From contig JAUSGI010000008.1 of assembly GCA_030649135.1 (NCBI GenBank), positions 32,001 to 96,000 of the forward strand: 64,000 nt of DNA, given 5' to 3'. Shown here one piece after another: positions 53 to 9,692 of this stretch (position 1 is its first letter; each line of letters opens with the position of its first letter). The position numbers were made by a program, and so were the translations under genes. The DNA comes from a bacterium (GTDB lineage: Bacteria; Patescibacteriota; Minisyncoccia; Phycocordibacterales; Zambryskibacteraceae). The notes beneath the pieces were generated by a model. The model did not search any database. It saw nothing but the letters and a program-made list of their open reading frames with translations, and was not told the DNA's origin.

Positions 53-3000
53 ATGACAAAACTCATGGGGGTAATTCTTAGCTTAGTGCTAATGGCCGGG
101 TCGGTCCAAGCGGCCACCTTAGATGACATAGTATTTACAGAAATAATGGCGACTCCCAATGCTGTGGCTGATGCCGACGGCGAGTGGATTGAAGTTCAGA
201 ACAATTCTTTAAGCCCAGTAGATATTGGAGGTTGGATATTAAACGATGGTTCAGATCACACTATTTCCGGACCTTATTCTATACCAGCGGGTGAGAAAGC
301 GGTAATCTGTCGCGACAATGATTCCTCTGTAAATGGAGGAGTTAAATGCCATTATCAATCAGTTATGGTCCTAACTGACATTGGTAAAACTCTGCAACTT
401 CTTGAGGGGGTGACCACTATAAACGAGGCTACATACGGAGACACTGCTGGAAATTCGGGAAAATCAGTTTATATTCCTAGTGGAAGTTTCGAGTCTGTTA
501 GTCAATTTGGAAATGGCGATTATGGAACTCCGGCTGGGAATGGTGCATCAATTGGAACTCATTCCTACGCTTCGATTCAGATTGCAATTGATGCGGCAAT
601 TTCCGGTAACACGATAGATGTTGGAGCGGGGACTTACGCGGAGAATGTTTCGCTTGACGGAAAGACAAATCTTACAATTCAAGGCGCTGGAGAGGCAACC
701 ATTATTGAACCAGCAAGCGGAATTGGTTTTGCAATTAAAAATTCAAGCGGCATAACAATAAAGAATCTTAAAATACATACCACAGGAACCAATGCCCATG
801 GTGTCTGGGTTGCGGGAACTCCGAATGGCGGAGCAACGGCGGTAACTGGTCTTACCGTACAAGATGACACCATAGTTGTTGACGGTTATTCCAGCGGCAT
901 TTACGCCGAACAAGTTGATACAACACCTCATTCTGGCTGGCTAATAACAGGGAACACTATAACTGTAAATCCTGGCGCTGGTGTTACTGGTGATGGAATG
1001 GACTTGCACGATGTGTCGGGTTCGGAGGTAAGCTACAACACAATAATTCTGAATACTCCGACTGATAGCACAAATGTTCTCTGGACAAGCGAATTGTCAA
1101 ATCTTTCTAGTCTCATATTCTCCAATAACACCATCAGTGGCTCAAGCGGTAGTGAGATAGCAATCCTAACTGATTTTCTGGATGCTCTAGCAGATACATC
1201 AATTACCACCGTAACAGTAAGTGGAAACACGTTCAGTAATTGGGGTTCTAGGGCCCTAAGAGTCGGGACGGCTAACGGAACCGGAGCGGTGACGGAAATC
1301 GCAGTAAATTCAAACATATTCCAAATGGCCGCCGACACAACAGAAGTTATCGGCGGCACGGCTGCGTCAAGTGCGACTGGTAGCGGCAATATCTTCAATG
1401 TTAGTGGGACAGCAAAAATTCAAAAAGCGGTAGACGGGGCATTTTCTGGCGACACGATAAATGTCGCAGCGGGGACTTATGACGAACAGGTCGTAATAGA
1501 TGGAGAAGACCTGATATTACAAGGTGTTGGTGATACAACTATCATCCGACCATCTGCACCCGCAACGCTTACCCAGACTTATACCTTCCCAGCCGGAACT
1601 TTTTGGTCTGGCACAACTGCATCAAGTATTATCCTAGTGGAAAATGCCAGCGCTGTTACTATAAAAGATCTTAAAGTAGACGGTATTAATGTTACCAGTT
1701 TGCCCTTAACAGGTTCGCCTGACAGACTCGTCGGAGTTCTTTTGGGAGTATCTTCAGGTACCATTGATAATGCTACGGTCACTTCCATTAAAACAGCTGG
1801 CTATGCAAACCGTACATATGGCATTGAAGTAAGTGGCGCTGATAGTGGCACTTACAGCGTTGAAGTTAAAAGTTCTCATATAACAGACTGGGCTCGTAAT
1901 GGGATTGTTGCAGATGGAACTAATCTTACGGCCAACATCAATCACAACACGCTTGTAGGTCCTGGTACTATCTCTGGGCAGGTCGCTAACGGCATTCTTT
2001 TCATTGGTGGAGCTGCTGGTAACACTACAAGTAATACTATCAGCGGAATGCACTACAACGCAGATCCAGTATCTCGCAGTGCCGGTATCTTGATTTATGG
2101 CGCAACCACGGCCGGAATCTTGATAGACCAAAATGACATTTCCGATACGGATGATGGAATAAATTTGTCGGCCAGTTCTCATAACGCGACTGTCAGCAAC
2201 AACAATCTGCATAATAATCTAGAAGTAGGTATACAACTAGAAAACGGGACAGCAAACAACGCCATAACTGGGAACACAATTGTTAATAATACAATGGCTG
2301 GTATACGTTTTGGCGGTGCAGGTGATCCGGTTCCCGCGGAAGCGGATACTCCACCTGGGGCAGGTAATGTTGCTAATGATAAAAATACGATTACTGGTAA
2401 CGCGAACGGTATAGTAAATTACGATACGGGTCTTGGACAGATATTTGATGCCGCCAACAACTGGTGGGGCAACGTGAGCGGACCGTTCAACACTACAAGC
2501 AATCCTTTGGGAACCGGTGATTCTATTTCCGACAATGTAAACTTTGTTCCGTGGTATTCCACTAGCGGAATGACGACGCTTGTTTCCGCAAACATGATTG
2601 CTTACAATACCGCCTTGGATGCCGTTAGTCAGACGGACTACACGACTGCAAGCTGGTCTGCCTACCAAGCAATTGTGACTGCCAATACGAGGACCGACCA
2701 AAACACTCAAACTGAAGTTGATGACGCGACGGCCGCAATCACTACCGCGCAACTTGATCTGATTGCTATTGCCGACCTCACTGATTACAACACCGCTTTA
2801 GACGCAGTTGTTGAAAGCGATTATACGACCGAAAGCTGGGCAACGTATCAAGCTATTGTGGACGCCAATGTGGTAACCGACCAACATACCCAAGCTGAAG
2901 TTGATACAGCAATCGATAATATTACCATCGCGCAAGATGATTTAGTGGCAACACTGGACGTAGCAAAAACAACGGCACATGAAGCTCTTACAACTGCTCG

Positions 3001-3985
3001 CGCGTTATATACAGATACAAACTACACCGCTGAAAATCTAGTGGTCTTAAACGGATTCAAGTCGGATGGCGATATCGCGATTGACTCCGCTTCAGACTTA
3101 GCCGGAGTGTCCACAGCGCAGAACACAGCTACTGCTGGAATGGCCGGTGTGTTAAAAAATACACAAACAGCTCCTGACGATGACGGAAATGCGACAATGG
3201 ACTCTGACACAACGGAAGTGGTTATCACAGACCCGGATCAACCTGTTGACATTACAATTGAAAGTGGCACAGAAAATCCGACAATTGATGTTAGTGCATT
3301 TATTACCGATGGAATAGGAATATTGCCGGAGATTACAATCAATTCCGACGTAGCGGATGTTATAATTCCGGATAGTACGACAGTGACTGGCCCGACTGAT
3401 TGGGATGGGGTCATTAGCGTACCAACGGCTACCACTACTACTGGCACTGCCCCAGCTGGGTTTAGCGTTGGCGGTACTGTTATCTCGGTCGGTTCGTCTC
3501 AAGGAACATTAACCTTCAGTAATCCCGTTACGATATTACTTGCAGGTGTTACTGGAACAGTTGGCTACAAACCAGCTGGTTCAGATACTTGGCAGACGAT
3601 AACCAATGTTTGTGCCGACCCGTATGCAACTCCAGGCAACCCTCCAGCCGGTAGCGAATGCGCAATATCAAATGGTACTGATACTAAAATTGTCACCTTC
3701 CACTTCACGGAATTTGGAGAATTAGATTCTATTCCAGCTACGCCTATCCCTCCTCGTTCAAGCAGGGCAGGAGACTTTTCTCCGGCCGCGCGCAGAGCAA
3801 TCTTGGCAGCGACACCCAATGCATCAGCAGTATCGGTTGTAGGTCAAGTCCTTGGAGCCTTCACTGAAGATGAAAGACAGGCTCAAATTGTGTCCGTCCG
3901 CGGGCAACTTATAGAGAAGATAAATCAACTAATCGGTCTCTTGCGGGTGCAACTTGCAGCGGCCATAACAGCAGGCGATCAATAA
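53..3985 (+). CDS. Large secreted surface protein: signal peptide, lamin-tail domain (LTD), right-handed parallel beta-helix (NosD-like) repeats, WWG..PWY cap module, two FIVAR-like ~55-aa tandem repeats, conserved C-terminal tail
   Basis: N-terminus MTKLMGVILSLVLMAGSVQA is signal-like. The segment IVFTEIMATPNAVADADGEWIEVQNN...GGWILND is typical of LTD. There are many GxxxxxN/T beta-helix rungs. The motif WWGNVSGPFNTTSNPLGTGDSISDNVNFVPWY is shared with the 7764-9692 protein. Repeats of form YNTALDAV..DYTT.SW..YQAIV.AN..TDQ.TQ.EVD.A are FIVAR-like. Confidence 0.85.
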   Translation: MTKLMGVILSLVLMAGSVQAATLDDIVFTEIMATPNAVADADGEWIEVQNNSLSPVDIGGWILNDGSDHTISGPYSIPAGEKAVICRDNDSSVNGGVKCHYQSVMVLTDIGKTLQLLEGVTTINEATYGDTAGNSGKSVYIPSGSFESVSQFGNGDYGTPAGNGASIGTHSYASIQIAIDAAISGNTIDVGAGTYAENVSLDGKTNLTIQGAGEATIIEPASGIGFAIKNSSGITIKNLKIHTTGTNAHGVWVAGTPNGGATAVTGLTVQDDTIVVDGYSSGIYAEQVDTTPHSGWLITGNTITVNPGAGVTGDGMDLHDVSGSEVSYNTIILNTPTDSTNVLWTSELSNLSSLIFSNNTISGSSGSEIAILTDFLDALADTSITTVTVSGNTFSNWGSRALRVGTANGTGAVTEIAVNSNIFQMAADTTEVIGGTAASSATGSGNIFNVSGTAKIQKAVDGAFSGDTINVAAGTYDEQVVIDGEDLILQGVGDTTIIRPSAPATLTQTYTFPAGTFWSGTTASSIILVENASAVTIKDLKVDGINVTSLPLTGSPDRLVGVLLGVSSGTIDNATVTSIKTAGYANRTYGIEVSGADSGTYSVEVKSSHITDWARNGIVADGTNLTANINHNTLVGPGTISGQVANGILFIGGAAGNTTSNTISGMHYNADPVSRSAGILIYGATTAGILIDQNDISDTDDGINLSASSHNATVSNNNLHNNLEVGIQLENGTANNAITGNTIVNNTMAGIRFGGAGDPVPAEADTPPGAGNVANDKNTITGNANGIVNYDTGLGQIFDAANNWWGNVSGPFNTTSNPLGTGDSISDNVNFVPWYSTSGMTTLVSANMIAYNTALDAVSQTDYTTASWSAYQAIVTANTRTDQNTQTEVDDATAAITTAQLDLIAIADLTDYNTALDAVVESDYTTESWATYQAIVDANVVTDQHTQAEVDTAIDNITIAQDDLVATLDVAKTTAHEALTTARALYTDTNYTAENLVVLNGFKSDGDIAIDSASDLAGVSTAQNTATAGMAGVLKNTQTAPDDDGNATMDSDTTEVVITDPDQPVDITIESGTENPTIDVSAFITDGIGILPEITINSDVADVIIPDSTTVTGPTDWDGVISVPTATTTTGTAPAGFSVGGTVISVGSSQGTLTFSNPVTILLAGVTGTVGYKPAGSDTWQTITNVCADPYATPGNPPAGSECAISNGTDTKIVTFHFTEFGELDSIPATPIPPRSSRAGDFSPAARRAILAATPNASAVSVVGQVLGAFTEDERQAQIVSVRGQLIEKINQLIGLLRVQLAAAITAGDQ

Positions 3986-3998
3986 CTCCCAAACGCTC

Positions 3999-4514
3999 CT
4001 ACGCGTGGTTGTATAACAGTTTAAGTTTCTCAAGCCCTCGGTGTGCTTGCACGGCCATAGCATTCTTTGATTGTCCGGTGATAAGAGCCATTTCTTTGAG
4101 TGACAGATTTTGCACGTACCGCATGCGTATCACTTTCTGGTATTTTGTCGGAAGATGTTGAATTAATAGGAGTGCCGCTTTCCCGTCTAGGGTGTTGAAA
4201 AGAAGTTCGGAATGTTCAACGCTCGGCTCGTAGCCTTTTTCAAGTAGGACATCAAGGGAAGTGGTTTTGTGCTTCCGATATTCATCAATGATAAGATTAT
4301 TGAGGACGTGGTAGAGAAAAGCTTTCATGACATCAATCTTCCCTCCTTTCACGAGGTAGGCCCATGTTTTCATGAAGGTGTCTTGTACTAAGTCTTCGCC
4401 CCTAGCATGGTCGTGTATCTTGAAAAAGGCATGTGCATTGAGTCCCTTTTCGTAGTCATTGTGTGCTAGGGTTAATACTGTCTGTTGGCGCACCTTCTGT
4501 TTGGGGGTCATCAT
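3999..4514 (-). CDS. RNA polymerase sigma factor, ECF (sigma-70 family) subfamily
   Basis: Region 2 DLVQDTFMKTW and region 4 LSLKEMALITGQSKNAMAVQAHRGLEKLK are present. Size 171 aa. Confidence 0.85.
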   Translation of the reverse strand: MMTPKQKVRQQTVLTLAHNDYEKGLNAHAFFKIHDHARGEDLVQDTFMKTWAYLVKGGKIDVMKAFLYHVLNNLIIDEYRKHKTTSLDVLLEKGYEPSVEHSELLFNTLDGKAALLLIQHLPTKYQKVIRMRYVQNLSLKEMALITGQSKNAMAVQAHRGLEKLKLLYNHA

Positions 4515-4768: not shown

Positions 4769-5152
4769 ATGCAAACACCCAAAACAATACTAATCATAGA
4801 AGATGAGAAAAGTCTTCGCGATGCCATCGTGGACATTCTACGTCTCAAAAACTTCTTGTCTCTTGAGGCAAAAAATGGTAGAGAGGGGGTGGAGCTCGCG
4901 CTCTCCAAACACCCTGACCTCATTTTGCTTGACCTTATTATGCCGGAGATGGACGGTATAATTGCGCTCAAAAATATTCGAGAAGATGCTTGGGGGAAAA
5001 AAGTTCCCATTATTATTCTAACGAATTTGAGTGCGACCAATGAACAGTTTGGGGATGATAAGGCGACGCTTAAGGCAACGCATTATTTAATTAAATCGGA
5101 TTGGAAGCTGCATGATATCGCAAAGAAGATCGAAGAAATATTGGAAACTTAA
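4769..5152 (+). CDS. Stand-alone response regulator receiver (CheY-like)
   Basis: ILIIEDEKSLRD, the phospho-acceptor context DLILLDLIMPEMDG, and a Lys-containing C-terminus. 127 aa with no output domain. Confidence 0.85.
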   Translation: MQTPKTILIIEDEKSLRDAIVDILRLKNFLSLEAKNGREGVELALSKHPDLILLDLIMPEMDGIIALKNIREDAWGKKVPIIILTNLSATNEQFGDDKATLKATHYLIKSDWKLHDIAKKIEEILET

Positions 5153-5160
5153 AATACTCC

Positions 5161-7182
5161 ATGAATAAAAAAACTATCATCTCTGCGTCCGATGATATAA
5201 TCCTAAATCTCAAAGTTTCGGCTAAGGAAAAAGAAATTGTCAGGCGCAAACTTGCTGTAACAGCAGAGAGGCTTGCTGCGACGGCAGTGAAACTTGCCAT
5301 AACAGCTAAGGAAAGAGAAAGTGTGAGGATTAAGCTAGCGGTGACTGCCGAAGAAAAGGAACATGTCAGGCTTAAGTTAGTGGTGACCGCAGAGAAGCTT
5401 GCTGTAATCGCAGAGAAGCTTGCTGTGACTGCCGAGGAAAAGGAAAGTGTCAGGCGCAAACTTGCCGTGACGGCAGCCAAACTTGCAGTAACGGCAGCTA
5501 AACTCTCCGCAACTACTGAGGAAAAAGAAAGTGTGAGACGCAAGAAGCTAGTCGCGACAGCAGCTAAGCTTGCTGTAACAGCAGAGAAGCTTGCTGCGAC
5601 CGCCAAAGAAAAGGAGAGTGTCAGGCGCAAACTTGCTGTGACCGCAGCCAAACTTGCTGTGACAGCAGAGAAGCTTGCCGCGACGGCCAAGGAAAAAGAA
5701 ATTGTTAGGCGTAAACTCGTCGTGACGGCAGAAAAGCTAGTCGTGACGGCAGCCAAACTCGCCGTGACAGCAGAGAAGCTTGCCGCGACGGCAGCCAAAC
5801 TCGCAGTAACTGCTAAGGAAAAAGAAATTGTTAGGCGTAAACTTGCAGCGACTGCTAAGGAAAAAGAAAGTGTCAGGCGCAAGCTGGTAGTGACTGCTAA
5901 GGAAAAAGAAAGTGTCAGGCGTAAGCTGGTGGTGACAGCCAAGGAAAAGGAGAGCGTCAGGCGTAAGCTGGTGGTGACAGCAGCTAAACTTGCTGTAACT
6001 GCAGCGAAACTCAAAAAGTCGTACGAAACACTCGAGAAGAAAGTGCTTGAACGAACCAAGAGTCTAGAAATGTCCAGAGCAAAGGAAGAGGCGGTTTTGC
6101 TCTCGATTGGTGACGGACTTCTTGTGACTAATGAAAAAGGAAATGTTATTATTATAAATAAGACAGCTGAAAAACTACTCGGTATTAAGAGTAAAGAAGC
6201 TATGGGAAAGGTCTTTTCCGAAGCCGTTCTTTTGGTAGATGAAAAAGGGGTGCCTATTCCGTCAGAGAAACATCCCGTAAGGATGGCTCTAGTAAGCGGC
6301 ATTACTACTGCCACTACTATTGTAGGTTCCACTTACTATAATGTGCGGAAAGATAAAACGAAATTTCCTGTGGCAATTATGGTCACGCCCGTTATTCTTG
6401 ACGGGAAGGTGATTGGAACAATTGAAGTTTTTCGAGATATTACCGCCGAGCGGGAAATTGATAAAGCCAAAACCGAATTTGTTTCCCTTGCTTCACACCA
6501 GCTCCGCACCCCGCTTTCTACGGTCAATTGGTACGCGGAAATGCTTCTGGCCGGAGATGTGGGGGAGTTGAATGAAAAACAAAAGAAATATTTAGATGAG
6601 GTATATCGCAGTAATCAGCGAATGGTTGAATTGGTAAACGCCCTTTTGGATGTCGCTTCTCTTGAAATTGGTACCTTTGTGGTTGAGCCGGAACCAACCG
6701 ATATAATCGAACTAGCGCAAAGTGTCATAGACGAACAAAAACCGCAGATTGAGGCCAAAAAAATAGTATTTTCTTTTTCATTCGGGAAAAATATTTCACT
6801 TATGCAGGCCGACCCCAAACTCCTGCGAATGATAGTGCAAAATATCTTGTCAAATGCGGTAAAATATACTCATGAAGGCGGGAAAATCGATATGTCGATT
6901 TCCTTAGCGGACAAAAATAATATTCTTCTGAAAGTCGATGATACGGGCTACGGCATACCCCAAAATCAGCAAGATAAAATATTTACCAAGCTGTTTCGGG
7001 CCGATAATGTCAGAGATAAAGACACGGACGGCACGGGCCTCGGGCTCTATATTGTAAAGTCAGTCGTTGAAAATTCTGGCGGGAAAATCTGGTTTAAGTC
7101 CGTGGGCGGGGAAGAAAATAAAGGCACCACCTTTTATGTATCGCTGCCTTTGGATGGGGCGAAAAAGCCGGCTAATATATAA
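5161..7182 (+). CDS. Sensor histidine kinase with N-terminal heptad-repeat coiled coil, PAS domain, HisKA and HATPase_c, no transmembrane segment
   Basis: H-box FVSLASHQLRTPLSTVNWYAEML. ATP-lid motifs N box (NAVKYT), DDTGYGIP and GTGLGLYIVK. A PAS-like block after the repeats. The N-terminal ~270 aa are repeats of AEKLAVTAKEKESVRRKLAVT. Confidence 0.85.
   Translation: MNKKTIISASDDIILNLKVSAKEKEIVRRKLAVTAERLAATAVKLAITAKERESVRIKLAVTAEEKEHVRLKLVVTAEKLAVIAEKLAVTAEEKESVRRKLAVTAAKLAVTAAKLSATTEEKESVRRKKLVATAAKLAVTAEKLAATAKEKESVRRKLAVTAAKLAVTAEKLAATAKEKEIVRRKLVVTAEKLVVTAAKLAVTAEKLAATAAKLAVTAKEKEIVRRKLAATAKEKESVRRKLVVTAKEKESVRRKLVVTAKEKESVRRKLVVTAAKLAVTAAKLKKSYETLEKKVLERTKSLEMSRAKEEAVLLSIGDGLLVTNEKGNVIIINKTAEKLLGIKSKEAMGKVFSEAVLLVDEKGVPIPSEKHPVRMALVSGITTATTIVGSTYYNVRKDKTKFPVAIMVTPVILDGKVIGTIEVFRDITAEREIDKAKTEFVSLASHQLRTPLSTVNWYAEMLLAGDVGELNEKQKKYLDEVYRSNQRMVELVNALLDVASLEIGTFVVEPEPTDIIELAQSVIDEQKPQIEAKKIVFSFSFGKNISLMQADPKLLRMIVQNILSNAVKYTHEGGKIDMSISLADKNNILLKVDDTGYGIPQNQQDKIFTKLFRADNVRDKDTDGTGLGLYIVKSVVENSGGKIWFKSVGGEENKGTTFYVSLPLDGAKKPANI
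5209..6015 (+). repeat. Tandem array of ~63-nt (21-codon, 3x heptad) near-identical repeats inside the histidine kinase gene
   Basis: Direct reading shows the same unit recurring. One instance is gcagagaagcttgctgcgaccgccaaagaaaaggagagtgtcaggcgcaaacttgctgtgacc. There are three consecutive copies of AKEKESVRRKLVVT near the 3' end. The long ORF on the opposite strand (5091..6332) is a repeat shadow. Confidence 0.8.
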
Positions 7183-7190
7183 TTAATCAT

Positions 7191-7661
7191 ATGTCCAACA
7201 AATCTGTGAAAAAGCAAACCATTCTGGTAATAGAGGATGAGAAACCTCTGCTTGAGGCCATTAATGACAAACTTGAAAAAAGCGGTTTCGGTGTGATTGC
7301 GGCCCGTAGTGTGGAGCAAGCGTTCAACGCGAATATCGCGAAAAACGGCCTAGGTGTCATAAATGTTCGAAGCATCGAGCAAGCGCTTAATTATCTTGAA
7401 AGTTTGGAACGAGTAGACGCAATTTGGCTGGACCATCACCTTTTGGGCAAAGAAGATGGTCTTGATTTTGTAAAAAAATTTAAAGCAAATGGCGGGCGCT
7501 GGAGTAAAATTCCTGTCTTCGTAGTTTCGAATGCCGCCAGTCCCAAAACTGTCAAGTCTTATGTAGATTCCGGTGTGAGCAAGTACTATGTCAAATCCGA
7601 CCATCGACTCGATGAAATTATCAAAGACATTCAATCTTTTTTAGACCATTCGGCGAAATAA
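7191..7661 (+). CDS. Response regulator receiver with internal 17-aa tandem duplication
   Basis: ILVIEDEKPLLE and the acceptor Asp in AIWLDHHLLGKEDG. The beta2-alpha2 segment is present twice: GFGVIAARSVEQAFN and GLGVINVRSIEQALN. Confidence 0.8.
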   Translation: MSNKSVKKQTILVIEDEKPLLEAINDKLEKSGFGVIAARSVEQAFNANIAKNGLGVINVRSIEQALNYLESLERVDAIWLDHHLLGKEDGLDFVKKFKANGGRWSKIPVFVVSNAASPKTVKSYVDSGVSKYYVKSDHRLDEIIKDIQSFLDHSAK

Positions 7662-7763: not shown

Positions 7764-9692
7764 ATGGAAAAATCTAATAAGGGTTCAATTATACTAACCG
7801 TGCTGACCGTCTCCCTTGTAATCGGTTTTCTGGGGTCAATGGTCGCGTATGCATTCGTAAGTCCAGCGACAGTCAATCTTGGAACAGCGGCTGATTTTGC
7901 GATTCTCTCGAAAGCGGGAATCACTAACGTTCCCACCTCTGTCATTACTGGGAATATCGGAACAAGTTTAGATGAAGCCAGTACTGATACTGCTTTCGCA
8001 GGTATCACGTGTGGCCAAGTGACGGGGTCAATATACTCGTTCAACTCGACAGGTCCTCTCCCTTGTGTGTTAGCTGACTCTGTATTGGCTACAACTGTAG
8101 TAAGTACGGCCGTAGGCGATATGGAAACTGCAATAACCGATGCCAACAGCCGAACACCTGATGATATCGACCTTGCATTCAATGCGGGCGTAGGATGTGC
8201 TCTTGGCACTTGTGACCTCGCGGGGCTTACTCTCGCTCCCGGCGTCTATACATTCACAGCTCCTGGCAATGTCATCATCACAAACGATGTTACCCTCTCG
8301 GGTAGCCCAAGTGATATTTGGATATTCATCATCCCGGGGACTCTTGATATCAGCTCTGCCAAGAAGGTTCTTCTAACCGGCGGCGCAGTATCTGACAATG
8401 TCTTCTGGTCAGTTGCTGGCGCGACTCAACTTCAAACATCTTCTACGTTCGAGGGAAATATCCTTGAAGCAGGAACGCCTCTTGCGATGCTCTCCGGTGC
8501 TACACTACACGGAAGAGCACTGTCGAAATTCGCAGTTACGCTCGATGCCAATACCGTTACGACTCCTTCCGCCACACCACCTCCGACAACCGGTCCGGTT
8601 TTCGTGGAAGAGGGGGTTGCGAACGGTACTCTTGATTTAGGAGAACTATTCTTCAACACCGTTCAATCAGCAATCGATGACGCAGGTACTCTTTCCGGCG
8701 ACACCATTCACGTTACCGCAGGAACTTACAACGAAAGTATCGTAGTTAACAAATCATTAACGCTCAATTCCGTGGGAGCAGTCATAAACGGCTCGGCGGG
8801 ACAAAATGGTGTTTCTATCGGGGCAAGTGATGTTACGGTTAACGGCTTCGAAGTTACTTCTAGCGGTCTTAGTGGAGTCTACGGTATCGCTGAAACAACG
8901 CCTGTCAGTAACACAGTTATTACCCACAACGTCGTTCACGGCTTTCCCGCATTGGGTATTGCGTTGGCGGCTGGTTCTGTCAATGCAGAAGTTACAACTA
9001 ACGAAGTCTACGATGTGTACGGAGGCATCTATCTTTCTACCGGCGCAATCGGTGCACTTGTAGACGGTAACGATGTTCACGACTTAGTAAGCGGTGCTGG
9101 TCCTGACCAGGGAGCCGCGGTCGCGTTTGAAGGAAACAACACAGATGTTTCGGTAACCAACAACACTCTCACAAATAACGCTTTCGGTCTCTATGTGTGG
9201 TCTGCGTTCGGTTCTGACTTTACCGGCACTGTAGTTGAGCATAACAAATTTGTAGGCAACACAGACGGTGTGGAAAATACCAATACTGGTATTATCAACG
9301 CTTCTCCGAACTGGTGGGGAGCTGTCACAGGTCCGACTCATGCCACCAACCCTAGCGGTCTAGGCGATGCGGTGAGCGACAATGTTACTTTTGACCCATG
9401 GTATGTGGACGAGGCTATGACCACGCTGTCAAATGCCCCGGCTCCAGCTCCCGCTCCAGCACCAGAACCAGAACCAGAATCAAGGGGTTCAAGGTCCGGT
9501 GACTCACGAAGAGTTTCTGCTCAAACTGCCAATGTAGTGGTGGGCGAAATCCTCGGCATCTTTACCGAAGCTGAAAGACTGGCACAGATTGCGACTGTTA
9601 AGGTTCAACTGTCCTCTCTTATCCGCCAACTGATCGGTTTATTACAGGCCCAATTGATTACGGCGCTTCAGACAGAGATTCGGAACTATTAA
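7764..9692 (+). CDS. Secreted/anchored protein: N-terminal TM or signal anchor, DUF3494 (ice-binding-protein-like) domain, right-handed beta-helix, WWG..PWY cap, PAPAPAPEPEPE linker, conserved C-terminal tail
   Basis: LGTAADFAILSKAGITNVPTSVITGNIGTS and DNVFWSVAGATQLQTSSTFEGNILEAGTPLAMLSGATLHGRAL are the canonical DUF3494 start and end. WWGAVTGPTHATNPSGLGDAVSDNVTFDPWY and the tail ILGIFTEAERLAQIATVKVQLSSLIRQLIGLLQAQL match the 53-3985 protein. Confidence 0.85.
   Translation: MEKSNKGSIILTVLTVSLVIGFLGSMVAYAFVSPATVNLGTAADFAILSKAGITNVPTSVITGNIGTSLDEASTDTAFAGITCGQVTGSIYSFNSTGPLPCVLADSVLATTVVSTAVGDMETAITDANSRTPDDIDLAFNAGVGCALGTCDLAGLTLAPGVYTFTAPGNVIITNDVTLSGSPSDIWIFIIPGTLDISSAKKVLLTGGAVSDNVFWSVAGATQLQTSSTFEGNILEAGTPLAMLSGATLHGRALSKFAVTLDANTVTTPSATPPPTTGPVFVEEGVANGTLDLGELFFNTVQSAIDDAGTLSGDTIHVTAGTYNESIVVNKSLTLNSVGAVINGSAGQNGVSIGASDVTVNGFEVTSSGLSGVYGIAETTPVSNTVITHNVVHGFPALGIALAAGSVNAEVTTNEVYDVYGGIYLSTGAIGALVDGNDVHDLVSGAGPDQGAAVAFEGNNTDVSVTNNTLTNNAFGLYVWSAFGSDFTGTVVEHNKFVGNTDGVENTNTGIINASPNWWGAVTGPTHATNPSGLGDAVSDNVTFDPWYVDEAMTTLSNAPAPAPAPAPEPEPESRGSRSGDSRRVSAQTANVVVGEILGIFTEAERLAQIATVKVQLSSLIRQLIGLLQAQLITALQTEIRNY

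What the first reader, a model, noticed from the sequence alone, without database searches (positions are those of the whole stretch)
5209..6015. Near-identical 63-nt tandem repeats encoding a heptad coiled coil at the N-terminus of a soluble PAS histidine kinase
About 13 units of AEKLAVTAKEKESVRRKLAVT with very high nucleotide identity sit in-frame before the PAS, HisKA and HATPase domains. They include three perfect consecutive copies near the 3' end. Such arrays expand and contract by slipped-strand or recombination events, so the kinase stalk length may vary between cells and strains. That would be a contingency-like tuning of a signalling protein. The 413-aa opposite-strand ORF is a repeat artefact.
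Basis: seen in the sequence. Interest (0 to 1): 0.5.

Follow-up and report, generated by a model that had tools for sequence, protein, structure and literature searches.

The report
Heptad-repeat helical stalk on a histidine kinase
A soluble sensor kinase of an ultra-small (CPR/Patescibacteria) bacterium has a roughly 40 nm, strongly basic helical rod built from 38 seven-residue repeats; relatives show the rod changes length in whole repeats even between near-identical strains, but the repeats here are too diverged in DNA to be a fast-switching locus.

Summary
The repeat is real and lies at window 5221-6018, aa 21-286 of the 673-aa kinase.

**Anatomy.** The unit is 21 nt (7 aa), not 63 nt. The array holds 38 heptads: eleven 14-aa modules (AKEKESVRRKLAVT) and sixteen 7-aa modules (A[AE]KLAVT), with 42- and 84-nt super-periods.

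**DNA identity.** Units are 72-78% identical, and the longest exact repeat is 30 nt. The "three perfect copies" are perfect only as protein. Sixty-eight per cent of the differences between units fall at third codon positions.

**What it is.** The array has no Gly or Pro and a net charge of +37. AlphaFold predicts it to be helical. It runs in phase into an S-helix (invariant ERT at c, d, e) that precedes PAS-HisKA-HATPase.

**Family.** No Pfam or NCBIfam model covers the array. At least 392 Patescibacterial kinases carry it. In 44 orthologs it is 4-39 heptads long; the register is 0 mod 7 in 40 and +1 in 4, each from one RRKKL skip, including this protein.

**Length variation.** In relatives, near-identical strains differ by 21-84 aa, always a multiple of 7. 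One pair shows 0-4 mismatches in 4.4 kb plus a single 84-nt indel. This locus has no close relative, so it could not be tested.

**Verdict.** It is a register-locked coiled-coil stalk that changes length over evolutionary time. Contingency-type switching is not shown. The antisense ORF is an artefact.

The parts
3999..4514 (-). ECF-type sigma-70 factor, divergent from the kinase operon; part of the conserved cassette
   Evidence: Pfam Sigma70_r2 and r4_2. NCBIfam sigma70-ECF scores 54.8 bits against a cutoff of 42.9. A sigma gene sits beside the REC and kinase genes in relatives too, upstream and divergent in L001, L002 and L004, downstream of the two REC genes in L166.
4769..5152 (+). Single-domain response regulator (REC only), 8 nt upstream of the kinase start
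   Evidence: Pfam Response_reg, E = 6e-19. The intergenic gap is 8 nt. Conserved in orthologous loci.
5161..7182 (+). Soluble sensor histidine kinase, 673 aa (NCBI MDO8590151.1)
   Evidence: ORF, Pfam domains, no transmembrane segment, exact look-up in the protein collection.
5161..5220 (+). Conserved 20-aa leader MNKKTIISASDDIILNLKVS, probably the helix N-cap and first hydrophobic layers
   Evidence: The consensus MxKKxxxSASDxIILxLKV holds across the family. The AlphaFold helix starts at residue 9 in both models.
5221..6018 (+). Heptad array, aa 21-286: 38 heptads made of 11 L modules (14 aa, one with +1) and 16 S modules (7 aa). No Gly or Pro, net charge +37, pI 10.5
   Evidence: Helical in AlphaFold.
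5542..5547 (+). AAGAAG, coding K128-K129: the one-residue skip (RRKKL) that shifts the heptad register by +1
   Evidence: The same RRKKL-type insertion occurs in orthologs L085, L007 and L013. AlphaFold confidence drops below 50 over residues 115-129.
5854..5979 (+). Three consecutive L modules, identical as protein (AKEKESVRRKLVVT) and 83-93% identical as DNA; the youngest part of the array
   Evidence: They are more alike to each other (0.90-0.93) than to any module in the orthologs (0.86 or less).
5850..5921 (+). The longest exact direct repeat in the array: 30 nt at 5850-5879 and again at 5892-5921
6022..6084 (+). S-helix-type junction (aa 288-308, YETLEKKVLERTKSLEMSRAK), with ERT at 6049-6057, in phase with the array
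   Evidence: E297 is nearly invariant; R298, T299, E292 and K294 are invariant in 45 sequences. ERT at heptad positions c, d, e is the S-helix signature (PMC1592074).
6091..6456 (+). PAS domain (aa 311-432)
   Evidence: Pfam PAS_9, E = 8e-13, plus PAS_4 and PAS. AlphaFold gives a PAS fold.
6466..6666 (+). HisKA/DHp domain (aa 436-502), with phospho-acceptor His446 at 6496-6498
   Evidence: Pfam HisKA, E = 8e-17. H446 is invariant.
6811..7155 (+). HATPase_c catalytic domain (aa 551-665)
   Evidence: Pfam, E = 1.3e-27.
7191..7661 (+). Second single-domain response regulator, 8 nt downstream of the kinase stop
   Evidence: Pfam Response_reg and cREC_REC. Gap of 8 nt. Conserved in orthologs.
5091..6332 (-). 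413-aa antisense ORF: not a gene, a compositional by-product of the array
   Evidence: Its translation is low-complexity. This antisense frame has no stop across the array in 10 of 11 arrays examined, and selection acts on the sense frame.

Best explanation
The repeat encodes one long alpha-helix that pairs with the same helix of the second subunit. The result is a parallel coiled-coil rod about 40 nm long on the N-terminus of a dimeric, cytoplasmic kinase of the WalK/VicK type (PAS-DHp-CA).

**Register.** The rod is in heptad phase with the S-helix (ERT motif) that leads into the PAS domain. That fixes position 1 (Ala or Arg) as 'a' and position 4 (Leu or Lys) as 'd'.

**Two kinds of heptad.**
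- S heptads (AxKLAVT) form an Ala/Leu zipper.
- Each 14-aa L module (AKEKESV-RRKLAVT) puts Lys at 'd' and then Arg at 'a', with E-K-E at c, d, e. This is the same kind of polar-core layer as E-R-T in the S-helix.

**Inferred behaviour.** The rod reads as a chain of zipper segments interrupted by basic, S-helix-like layers. It should be marginally stable, and it takes the place that TM, HAMP or sensor domains hold in other kinases. In family members without PAS it runs straight into the DHp helix. It also occurs as the PAS-PAS and PAS-DHp connector.

**Most likely function.** It is a register-locked dimerisation and signal-conducting stalk, capped by a conserved 20-aa leader.

**Evolution.** Its length changes by recombination or slippage between units, always in whole heptads. 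In this genome the units are old and diverged, and selection maintains them at the protein level.

**Shown versus inferred.**
- Shown: the repeat anatomy, the predicted helicity, the phase conservation, the family distribution, and the length polymorphism in relatives.
- Inferred: the dimeric parallel pairing, the metastability, and any signalling or sensing role.
For: - Heptad anatomy and composition: 266 aa, ten amino-acid types, no Gly or Pro, 69 Lys+Arg against 32 Asp+Glu.
- Hydrophobic period of 7.05 aa, well above shuffles.
- AlphaFold models: the window protein has helices 9-117, 126-260 and 272-315. A 10-heptad ortholog has one unbroken helix 9-110 running into PAS.
- Register: the distance from leader to junction is 0 mod 7 in 40 of 44 non-redundant orthologs and +1 in 4, each time from one RRKKL skip (an earlier count gave 32 of 33). 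In the PAS-less type, leader to His is 2 mod 7 in 21 proteins.
- The junction has an invariant R-T preceded by a nearly invariant Glu (E297), at the positions that are c, d, e when array position 1 is 'a' (S-helix definition in PMC1592074).
- The same array connects PAS to PAS and PAS to DHp in P0121 and P0127.
- All 120 listed best matches are histidine kinases or fragments of them.
- The core resembles WalK, VicK and YF1 by sequence and by fold.
- Purifying selection acts on the peptide: 235 synonymous against 103 non-synonymous codon differences among L modules, and 68% of differences at codon position 3.
- Module order can be aligned among orthologs: they start LSSL(L)SSL and end LLS.
- Indels between near-identical relatives are 21, 28, 28, 56, 70 and 84 aa. 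They lie at exact direct repeats of 65-72 nt.
- Published work on YF1 shows that kinase output depends on coiled-coil linker length with a 7-residue period, and that 7n+1 linkers invert the response (PMC6798134).
Against: - No oligomer was modelled, and none can be with these tools. Parallel dimer pairing rests on the S-helix and histidine-kinase precedent.
- The hydrophobic pattern is not a textbook a/d pattern. There is no strong 3.5-residue harmonic, because a conserved Val/Ile at position 6 lies opposite Leu at position 4. A second interface or a higher-order assembly is therefore possible.
- Each L module places Lys and Arg in consecutive core layers, and each chain carries +37. Both argue against a stable homodimeric coil in the absence of counter-ions or a partner.
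- Conservation of 0 mod 7 follows partly from the unit being 7 aa, so it is weaker evidence for functional register-locking than it looks.
- The rod has a free N-terminal end with no recognisable sensor, so a signal-conducting role has no demonstrated input.
- AlphaFold confidence in the array is moderate (pLDDT 47-85), and the long model breaks the helix twice.
Confidence: 0.6

Rival explanations
1. The array is hypermutable by slipped-strand mispairing, so cells within one population carry kinases with different stalk lengths and so different signalling set-points.
For: - Relatives show unit-number differences between otherwise identical genomes. The 473-aa and 445-aa forms differ by one 84-nt indel with 0-4 mismatches in 4.3-4.4 kb; the short form is on 16 contigs from several assemblies.
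- A 210-nt indel in another pair is bounded by a 72-nt exact repeat.
- Five of ten multi-member 90% clusters show a length variant.
- All indels keep the reading frame and the heptad phase.
Against: - At this locus the units are 72-78% identical and the longest exact repeat is 30 nt, a poor substrate for slippage.
- The youngest copies already differ by 3-7 synonymous changes per 42 nt.
- The NCBI contig and the Logan assembly of SRR13727527 agree base for base through the array, and that contig runs unbroken across it.
- Five other clusters show no length variation.
- The differences seen are between assemblies. Nothing shows reversible, high-rate switching.
- The 210-nt case comes from low-coverage SPAdes-style contigs, so an assembler shortcut across the 72-nt repeat is not excluded (my own judgement).
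Confidence: 0.07
2. A neutral spacer or dimerisation handle. The rod only holds the two subunits together or adds bulk. Its length drifts neutrally because any whole-heptad indel is tolerated. It neither carries nor senses a signal.
For: - Orthologs in the same cassette function, presumably, with anything from 4 to 39 heptads.
- Near-identical strains differ by 3-12 heptads.
- There is no sensor domain at the free end.
- Keeping 0 mod 7 is automatic for a 7-aa unit.
Against: - The peptide sequence of the units is under purifying selection.
- The leader and the order of modules at both ends are conserved.
- No indels other than whole heptads have accumulated at 55-80% core identity, apart from one recurrent skip.
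- The same array is used as the PAS-PAS and PAS-DHp connector, where signals must pass.
- In PAS-less members it is the only region outside the catalytic core.
Confidence: 0.22
3. A polyanion-binding or localisation domain. The strongly basic helix (+37, pI 10.5) tethers the kinase to DNA, RNA, polyphosphate or anionic membrane, or builds a higher-order lattice through the exposed Val stripe.
For: - Net charge is about +1 per heptad across the family, while the rest of the protein is at -2.
- A conserved Val/Ile at position 6 lies on the face opposite the Leu seam.
- The weak PDB matches are to designed multi-helix antiparallel coiled coils.
Against: - No DNA-, RNA- or lipid-binding family is detected.
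- The PDB matches are not significant (E = 0.4-0.6).
- Nothing in the gene neighbourhood points to a partner.
- Charge alone is not specific.
Confidence: 0.1
4. An assembly artefact. The array, or its length, results from mis-assembly of repeats.
For: Repeat arrays are a known problem for short-read assemblers.
Against: - Two records are identical over 11,702 nt, including the array.
- The longest exact repeat is only 30 nt, shorter than usual final k-mers.
- The ORF is intact and in phase.
- Hundreds of relatives from independent assemblies have the same architecture.
Confidence: 0.01

Closest known systems
S-helix (signaling helix) of Anantharaman, Balaji and Aravind 2006 (PMC1592074)
   Same: - A parallel coiled-coil segment in signalling proteins, lying upstream of PAS or DHp.
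- The junction here carries the defining ERT at c, d, e (E297, R298, T299), plus Glu at 'e' (E292) and a basic residue at 'g' (K294).
- The array's L modules repeat a similar polar layer, E-K-E at c, d, e with the basic residue at 'd'.
   Different: - The S-helix is about 5 heptads long and sits between a sensor or receiver domain and an effector. Here about 38 further heptads extend it N-terminally to a free end, with no upstream sensor.
- The array heptads are a distinct repeat family that evolves by tandem duplication.
WalK/VicK-type PAS-DHp-CA histidine kinases (PDB 4i5s VicK; WalK model 9a5d) and the engineered LOV kinase YF1 (4gcz)
   Same: - The catalytic core and cytoplasmic PAS match by sequence (NCBIfam WalK 238 bits, PnpS 227 bits) and by fold (Foldseek E = 1e-22 to 1e-27).
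- The overall shape is a rod-like dimer built on a helical spine.
- YF1 shows that output depends on linker length with a 7-residue period.
   Different: - Scores are far below the equivalog cutoffs (725 and 400 bits).
- There is no transmembrane segment, extracellular domain or HAMP.
- The heptad array replaces them and has no counterpart in the solved structures.
Poly-HAMP arrays and other concatenated coiled-coil modulators in bacterial receptors (PMC13446029, listed)
   Same: Reiterated helical modules are inserted in series into the coiled-coil backbone of a signalling protein, and their number varies among homologs.
   Different: - HAMP is a four-helix parallel bundle of about 50 aa with a connector. 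Here the unit is a single 7- or 14-aa helical module without loops.
- No HAMP match was found. This is an analogy only.
Coding tandem-repeat (contingency-type) loci of bacterial surface proteins
   Same: In-frame tandem units whose number differs between closely related strains, as seen in relatives of this kinase.
   Different: - Those loci (from my own knowledge) have near-identical units and encode surface antigens under host or phage pressure.
- Here the units are 72-78% identical, the protein is cytoplasmic, and no high-rate switching is shown.

Membership tests
Class I (HisKA-type) two-component sensor histidine kinase | DHp/HisKA domain with the phospho-acceptor His in an H-box | tested here: met
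   Pfam HisKA, E = 8e-17, aa 436-502. SHQLRTPL is present and H446 is invariant in 45 sequences.
Class I (HisKA-type) two-component sensor histidine kinase | GHKL ATP-binding domain (HATPase_c) | tested here: met
   Pfam HATPase_c, E = 1.3e-27, aa 551-665. Fold matches HK853, VicK and WalK.
Class I (HisKA-type) two-component sensor histidine kinase | Cognate response regulator encoded nearby | tested here: met
   REC-only genes lie 8 nt upstream and 8 nt downstream. The arrangement is conserved in orthologs.
Class I (HisKA-type) two-component sensor histidine kinase | Autophosphorylation and phosphotransfer activity | not testable with these tools
   Needs biochemistry.
WalK / VicK / PhoR / PnpS equivalogs | Score above the NCBIfam equivalog cutoff | tested here: not met
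   WalK 238.5 bits against 725; PnpS 227.5 against 400; PhoR 182.3 against 334; VicK 140.6 against 680.
WalK / VicK / PhoR / PnpS equivalogs | Membrane anchor and HAMP N-terminal to the cytoplasmic PAS | tested here: not met
   No HAMP hit. No hydrophobic stretch: the highest 19-residue mean is 1.55.
S-helix (signaling helix) | ERT signature at heptad positions c, d, e of the central heptad | tested here: met
   VLERTKS has E297 nearly invariant and R298, T299 invariant. With V295 and L302 as 'a' and L291 as 'd', ERT falls on c, d, e as defined in PMC1592074.
S-helix (signaling helix) | Conserved Glu at 'e' and Arg at 'g' of the preceding heptad; Asn at the 'a' position two heptads before | tested here: inconclusive
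   E292 is invariant at 'e'. K294, not Arg, is invariant at 'g'. The 'a' position holds Tyr288, not Asn.
S-helix (signaling helix) | Lies between an upstream sensor or receiver domain and a downstream signalling domain | tested here: not met
   PAS lies downstream, but upstream there is only the heptad array and a 20-aa leader.
Heptad coiled coil | 7-residue periodicity over many turns, without helix breakers | tested here: met
   Period 7.05 aa with power 370 against a shuffle maximum of 110. No Gly or Pro in 266 aa. AlphaFold helices.
Heptad coiled coil | Hydrophobic residues at a and d throughout | tested here: inconclusive
   Across the family, position 1 is Ala 68% or Arg 29%, and position 4 is Leu 68% or Lys 29%. 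Every L module therefore has two consecutive basic core layers. There is no strong 3.5-residue harmonic.
Heptad coiled coil | Two or more helices actually wound together | not testable with these tools
   Only monomer prediction is available.
Contingency-type coding tandem repeat | Near-identical repeat units at the DNA level | tested here: not met
   72-78% mean identity; longest exact repeat 30 nt. Arrays of the orthologs likewise average 69-78%.
Contingency-type coding tandem repeat | Unit-number polymorphism between closely related strains | tested here: inconclusive
   This locus is a singleton cluster with no relative above 83%. Relatives show it in five of ten clusters, and two pairs were confirmed in DNA.
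Contingency-type coding tandem repeat | High-frequency, reversible change within a population | not testable with these tools
   Needs read-level or culture data.
Single alpha-helix (ER/K) domain | Composition dominated by Glu, Lys and Arg, with no hydrophobic seam | tested here: not met
   Glu+Lys+Arg make up 101 of 266 residues (38%). Ala, Leu, Val and Thr make up 150 of 266, with a conserved Leu/Ala seam. The expected SAH composition is from my own knowledge.

The most novel reading that the evidence does not exclude
The basic heptad array is itself the input module of a Patescibacteria-specific family of cytoplasmic kinases. It would be a metastable rod of reiterated S-helix-like heptads whose folding, register or partner binding responds to a physical or polyanionic cue such as ionic strength, temperature, nucleic acid or membrane charge. 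The number of heptads, reset by recombination between strains in whole-heptad steps, would set the kinase threshold. The recurrent single-residue RRKKL skip, present in this protein, would act as a built-in register inverter or hinge.
Probability: 0.15. Interest if true: 0.75.

Novelty: new variant of a known kind. Interest (0 to 1): 0.42.

Why it matters
**Few sensors.** CPR/Patescibacteria have very few sensor kinases, about 0.29 per 100 genes (PMC10805038). Each one probably controls something central to their host-dependent life.

**An undescribed family.** This kinase family is widespread in the group: 392 word-indexed hits. In 1.84 billion cluster representatives, 164 proteins match, though some of those matches are other repeat or coiled-coil proteins. 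It sits with two REC-only regulators and, in the loci where enough flanking DNA was seen, an ECF-type sigma factor. In place of a membrane sensor it carries a helical repeat array that no curated family describes.

**A natural linker library.** The array varies from 4 to 39 heptads, and to about 50 in P0126, while the heptad phase is held. A recurrent +1 variant also exists. This mirrors the engineered linker libraries that established the coiled-coil signalling rules in YF1, and gives ready-made variants for testing them.

**Annotation.**
- The array makes a long spurious antisense ORF.
- The kinase is labelled only "ATP-binding protein" in the source record.

Tried and rejected
- **63-nt unit.** Rejected on nucleotide autocorrelation and module parsing.
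- **Strain-level comparison at this locus.** The exact-protein look-up found only the same sequence in Logan. The 90% cluster is a singleton. The genome and metagenome scans reached only 78% identity, or 83% for a partial match. This led nowhere, so I moved to multi-member clusters of relatives.
- **PDB sequence search with the array.** It returned only non-significant matches to designed sc-apCC coiled coils (E = 0.4-0.6).
- **NCBIfam with the array.** It returned only SMC at E = 0.0028, far below cutoff.
- **Intramolecular helical hairpin or three-helix fold.** The long AlphaFold monomer suggested it. I rejected it as a family feature because the breaks fall where pLDDT is below 50, the array has no Gly, Pro or turn motif, and the 10-heptad ortholog gives a single unbroken helix.
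- **Beta-strand or solenoid reading of KLAVTA.** Rejected on composition and on the AlphaFold helices.
- **SAH (ER/K) domain.** Rejected on composition.
- **Register a = position 4, d = position 7.** This gives fewer charged core residues but is out of phase with the invariant ERT and the Y288/L291/V295/L302 seam of the junction. I preferred a = position 1, d = position 4.
- **Distant 7-aa repeat proteins.** The NACHT protein P0123 (ATKLDLT repeats) and P0132 (AKEFALS repeats) are different repeat families, not homologs of the array.
- **Second array gene in the window.** None found.
- **Literature.** Four searches found no description of this array.
Full report
**1. What is in the sequence**

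ORF 5161-7182 (+) encodes a 673-aa protein. Pfam finds PAS (aa 311-432), HisKA (436-502) and HATPase_c (551-665), and nothing in aa 1-310. Printed in sevens, aa 21-286 (nt 5221-6018) form 38 consecutive heptads.

They group into two module types:
- a 14-aa L module, AKEKESVRRKLAVT, present 11 times;
- a 7-aa S module, A[AE]KLAVT, present 16 times.

The order is LSSLLSSLSSlSSLSSLSSSSLLLLSS. Lower-case l marks the one L module with an extra Lys (RRKKLVAT; AAGAAG at 5542-5547).

Tandem Repeats Finder reports periods of 21, 42, 84 and 171 nt with 62-88% matches and scores up to 461. This is the only tandem repeat scoring 80 or more in the whole 64-kb window. Nucleotide self-identity is as follows:

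| Lag (nt) | Self-identity |
|---|---|
| 21 | 0.395 |
| 42 | 0.53 |
| 63 | 0.363 |
| 84 | 0.577 |
| control region (lags 21, 42, 84) | 0.25-0.27 |

The description as about 13 units of 63 nt is wrong.

**2. How similar the units are**

- L modules average 78% nucleotide identity (range 64-93%). S modules average 72%.
- The longest exact repeat is 30 nt, at 5850 and 5892.
- The three consecutive copies near the 3' end (aa 232-273, nt 5854-5979) are identical as protein but 83-93% identical as DNA.
- Among L modules, 235 codon differences are synonymous and 103 are not.
- By sense codon position, the differences number 43, 86 and 279.

The units are old enough to have diverged, and selection holds the peptide constant.

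**3. Physical nature of the array**

- The 266 residues use ten amino-acid types. None is Gly or Pro.
- There are 69 Lys+Arg against 32 Asp+Glu, a net charge of +37 and a pI of 10.5. The rest of the protein has a net charge of -2 and a pI of 6.1.
- Hydrophobicity has one dominant period of 7.05 residues (power 370; the maximum in 200 shuffles is 110).
- AlphaFold2 (monomer, 45-sequence alignment) makes aa 9-117, 126-260 and 272-315 helical. The two breaks fall where pLDDT is below 50, and one lies beside the extra Lys.
- For a 10-heptad ortholog (P0030) it predicts one unbroken helix from residue 9 to 110, running into the PAS domain.
- A continuous helix of this length would be about 40 nm long.
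- No transmembrane segment is present.

**4. Register and link to a known element**

The sequence between the array and PAS is YETLEKKVLERTKSLEMSRAK. In 45 aligned family members R298, T299, E292 and K294 are invariant and E297 is nearly invariant.

ERT at heptad positions c, d, e of a central heptad is the defining signature of the S-helix, the signaling helix (PMC1592074). Y288, V295 and L302 serve as 'a', and L291 as 'd'. On that assignment ERT falls on c, d, e, and this register is in phase with the array.

That fixes array position 1 (family-wide Ala 68% or Arg 29%) as 'a'. It fixes position 4 (Leu 68% or Lys 29%) as 'd'.
- S heptads are then an Ala/Leu zipper.
- Each L module puts Lys at 'd' and then Arg at 'a', with E-K-E at c, d, e. 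That is the same kind of polar-core layer as E-R-T.

Two features do not fit a simple two-stranded zipper. A conserved Val/Ile at position 6 lies on the opposite face, which removes the usual 3.5-residue harmonic. The chain is also strongly basic.

**5. The family**

Searching with aa 1-305 found 392 proteins at E ≤ 1e-3. All 120 listed are histidine kinases or fragments of them. The sources name them Paceibacterota, Peribacteria or Patescibacteria.

Two architectures occur: array-PAS-HisKA-HATPase and array-HisKA-HATPase. Both have a conserved leader, MNKKxIxSxSDxIIxxLKV.

An exhaustive HMMER search of 1.84 billion representatives gave 164 hits at E ≤ 1e-3 and 51 at E ≤ 1e-10. Of the 54 scanned with Pfam, 29 have HisKA and 29 have a PAS domain. 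Most of the rest are short sequences (probably fragments) or proteins that match unrelated coiled-coil families.

In P0121 and P0127 the same array also connects PAS to PAS and PAS to DHp. P0126 has about 50 heptads.

No Pfam or NCBIfam model covers the array. Four literature searches found no description of it.

The core is WalK/PnpS/PhoR/VicK-like but far below the equivalog cutoffs. The closest structures are a WalK model, VicK and YF1.

The cassette of a divergent sigma factor followed by REC, kinase and REC is conserved in orthologs. The PAS-less P0006 is followed by two REC genes. So is the PAS-containing Peribacteria kinase P0105, which also has a sigma gene downstream.

**6. Phase conservation and length variation**

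In 44 non-redundant orthologs with at least 55% core identity, the array is 4-39 heptads long. The window protein has the longest array of these 44.

The distance from leader to junction is 0 mod 7 in 40. It is +1 in 4: this protein, L085, L007 and L013. In each case the cause is a single RRKKL-type extra residue in one L module. PAS-less members keep leader to His at 2 mod 7 in 21 proteins.

Module strings can be aligned. They start LSSL(L)SSL and end LLS. No ortholog array is made of near-identical units; within-array means are 69-78%.

The three identical modules of this protein resemble each other (0.90-0.93) more than any module in an ortholog (0.86 or less). They are a lineage-specific and comparatively recent expansion.

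**7.

This locus cannot be tested. The protein (NCBI MDO8590151.1) is a singleton at 90% identity. The Logan contig from SRR13727527 is identical to the window over 11,702 nt, and I take it to be the same sample as the NCBI record, which is an inference. The nearest relatives in the genome and metagenome collections reach only 78% core identity, or 83% for a partial match.

| Pair | Length difference (aa) | Identity elsewhere |
|---|---|---|
| P0007 / P0269 | 28 and 21 | 99.3% |
| P0101 / P0277 | 56 | 96.9% |
| P0287 / P0021 | 70 | 100% |
| P0055 / P0291 | 84 | 92.9% |
| P0105 / P0299 | 28 | 100% |

Every indel is a multiple of 7 aa. Five other clusters show no variation.

At the DNA level there are two confirmed cases.
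- The 473-aa form (L166) and the 445-aa form (L167-170) differ by 0-4 mismatches in 4.3-4.4 kb plus one 84-nt indel. The short form is on 16 contigs, including a Peribacteria MAG in GenBank. That array has a 65-nt exact repeat at lag 84.
- L172 and L171 differ by 1 mismatch in 3,493 nt plus a 210-nt indel bounded by a 72-nt exact direct repeat. These are low-coverage contigs, so an assembler shortcut is not excluded for this second case.

Arrays of this family therefore do change length between near-identical strains, through recombination or slippage between long exact repeats. The window's array currently lacks such repeats.

**8. Interpretation**

The best-supported reading is a parallel coiled-coil rod continuous with the S-helix. 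The rod is register-locked and takes the place of the TM, HAMP or sensor part of other kinases.

Its use elsewhere as an inter-domain connector suggests it can carry conformational signals. So does published evidence that kinase output depends on coiled-coil length with a 7-residue period, and that 7n+1 linkers invert the response (PMC6798134). On that evidence the +1 skip in this protein is of interest.

Whether the free-ended N-terminal rod senses anything is not shown. A neutral dimerisation spacer and a polyanion-binding or lattice-forming domain remain live rivals. Contingency-type switching is unsupported at this locus.

**9. Antisense ORF**

The 413-aa ORF 5091-6332 (-) translates to low-complexity sequence. 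Its frame has no stop across the array in 10 of 11 arrays examined (the window and 10 orthologs). I attribute this to the array's restricted codon repertoire. Substitutions follow the sense frame.

Noticed in passing
window 3746-3982 and 9453-9689: Two large beta-helix proteins flank the kinase operon: 53-3985 (LTD plus Beta_helix) and 7764-9692 (Ice_binding plus Beta_helix). They share a 49%-identical C-terminal tail of about 70 aa ending in ...QLIGLL(R/Q)xQL... (BLASTP E = 4e-16). This may be a common anchoring or sorting element.
   Followed up: partly
window 7191-7661 (aa ~32-70); L002 9546-10019: The downstream REC protein carries an internal near-duplication of about 20 aa (GFGVIAARSVEQAFN / GLGVINVRSIEQALN) inserted in the receiver fold. 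An ortholog conserves it. Pfam also reports a cREC_REC match.
   Followed up: partly
window 5542-5547; L085, L007, L013: The same one-residue insertion (RRKKL or KQKKI) recurs in four long-array orthologs, at a similar module position. It is the only departure from whole-heptad length in 44 orthologs. Whether it reflects shared ancestry or recurrence was not resolved.
   Followed up: partly
P0121 (1060 aa), P0127 (652 aa), P0133 (608 aa): The same heptad array occurs between two PAS domains, between PAS and DHp, and at the C-terminal end of a PAS-containing signalling protein that may be truncated.
   Followed up: partly
P0123 aa ~1500-2300; P0132 aa ~420-700: Unrelated giant proteins carry very long 7-aa repeats built on a similar A-x-x-hydrophobic-x-hydrophobic-[ST] pattern. 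A NACHT protein has ATKLDLT more than 100 times and matches Pfam DUF3540 at E = 1e-51. Another protein has AKEFALS repeats.
   Followed up: no
L165 (contig k141_759765) 26-7522: A PAS-less array kinase is followed by two REC-only genes, a stand-alone PAS-like protein with a coiled-coil tail, a small membrane kinase plus REC, and a T2SSE/MshEN-type pilus ATPase.
   Followed up: no
window 5161-7182: The source record names this protein only 'ATP-binding protein' (MDO8590151.1, contig of 216,895 bp), and it is a singleton at 90% identity among about 15 billion proteins.
   Followed up: yes
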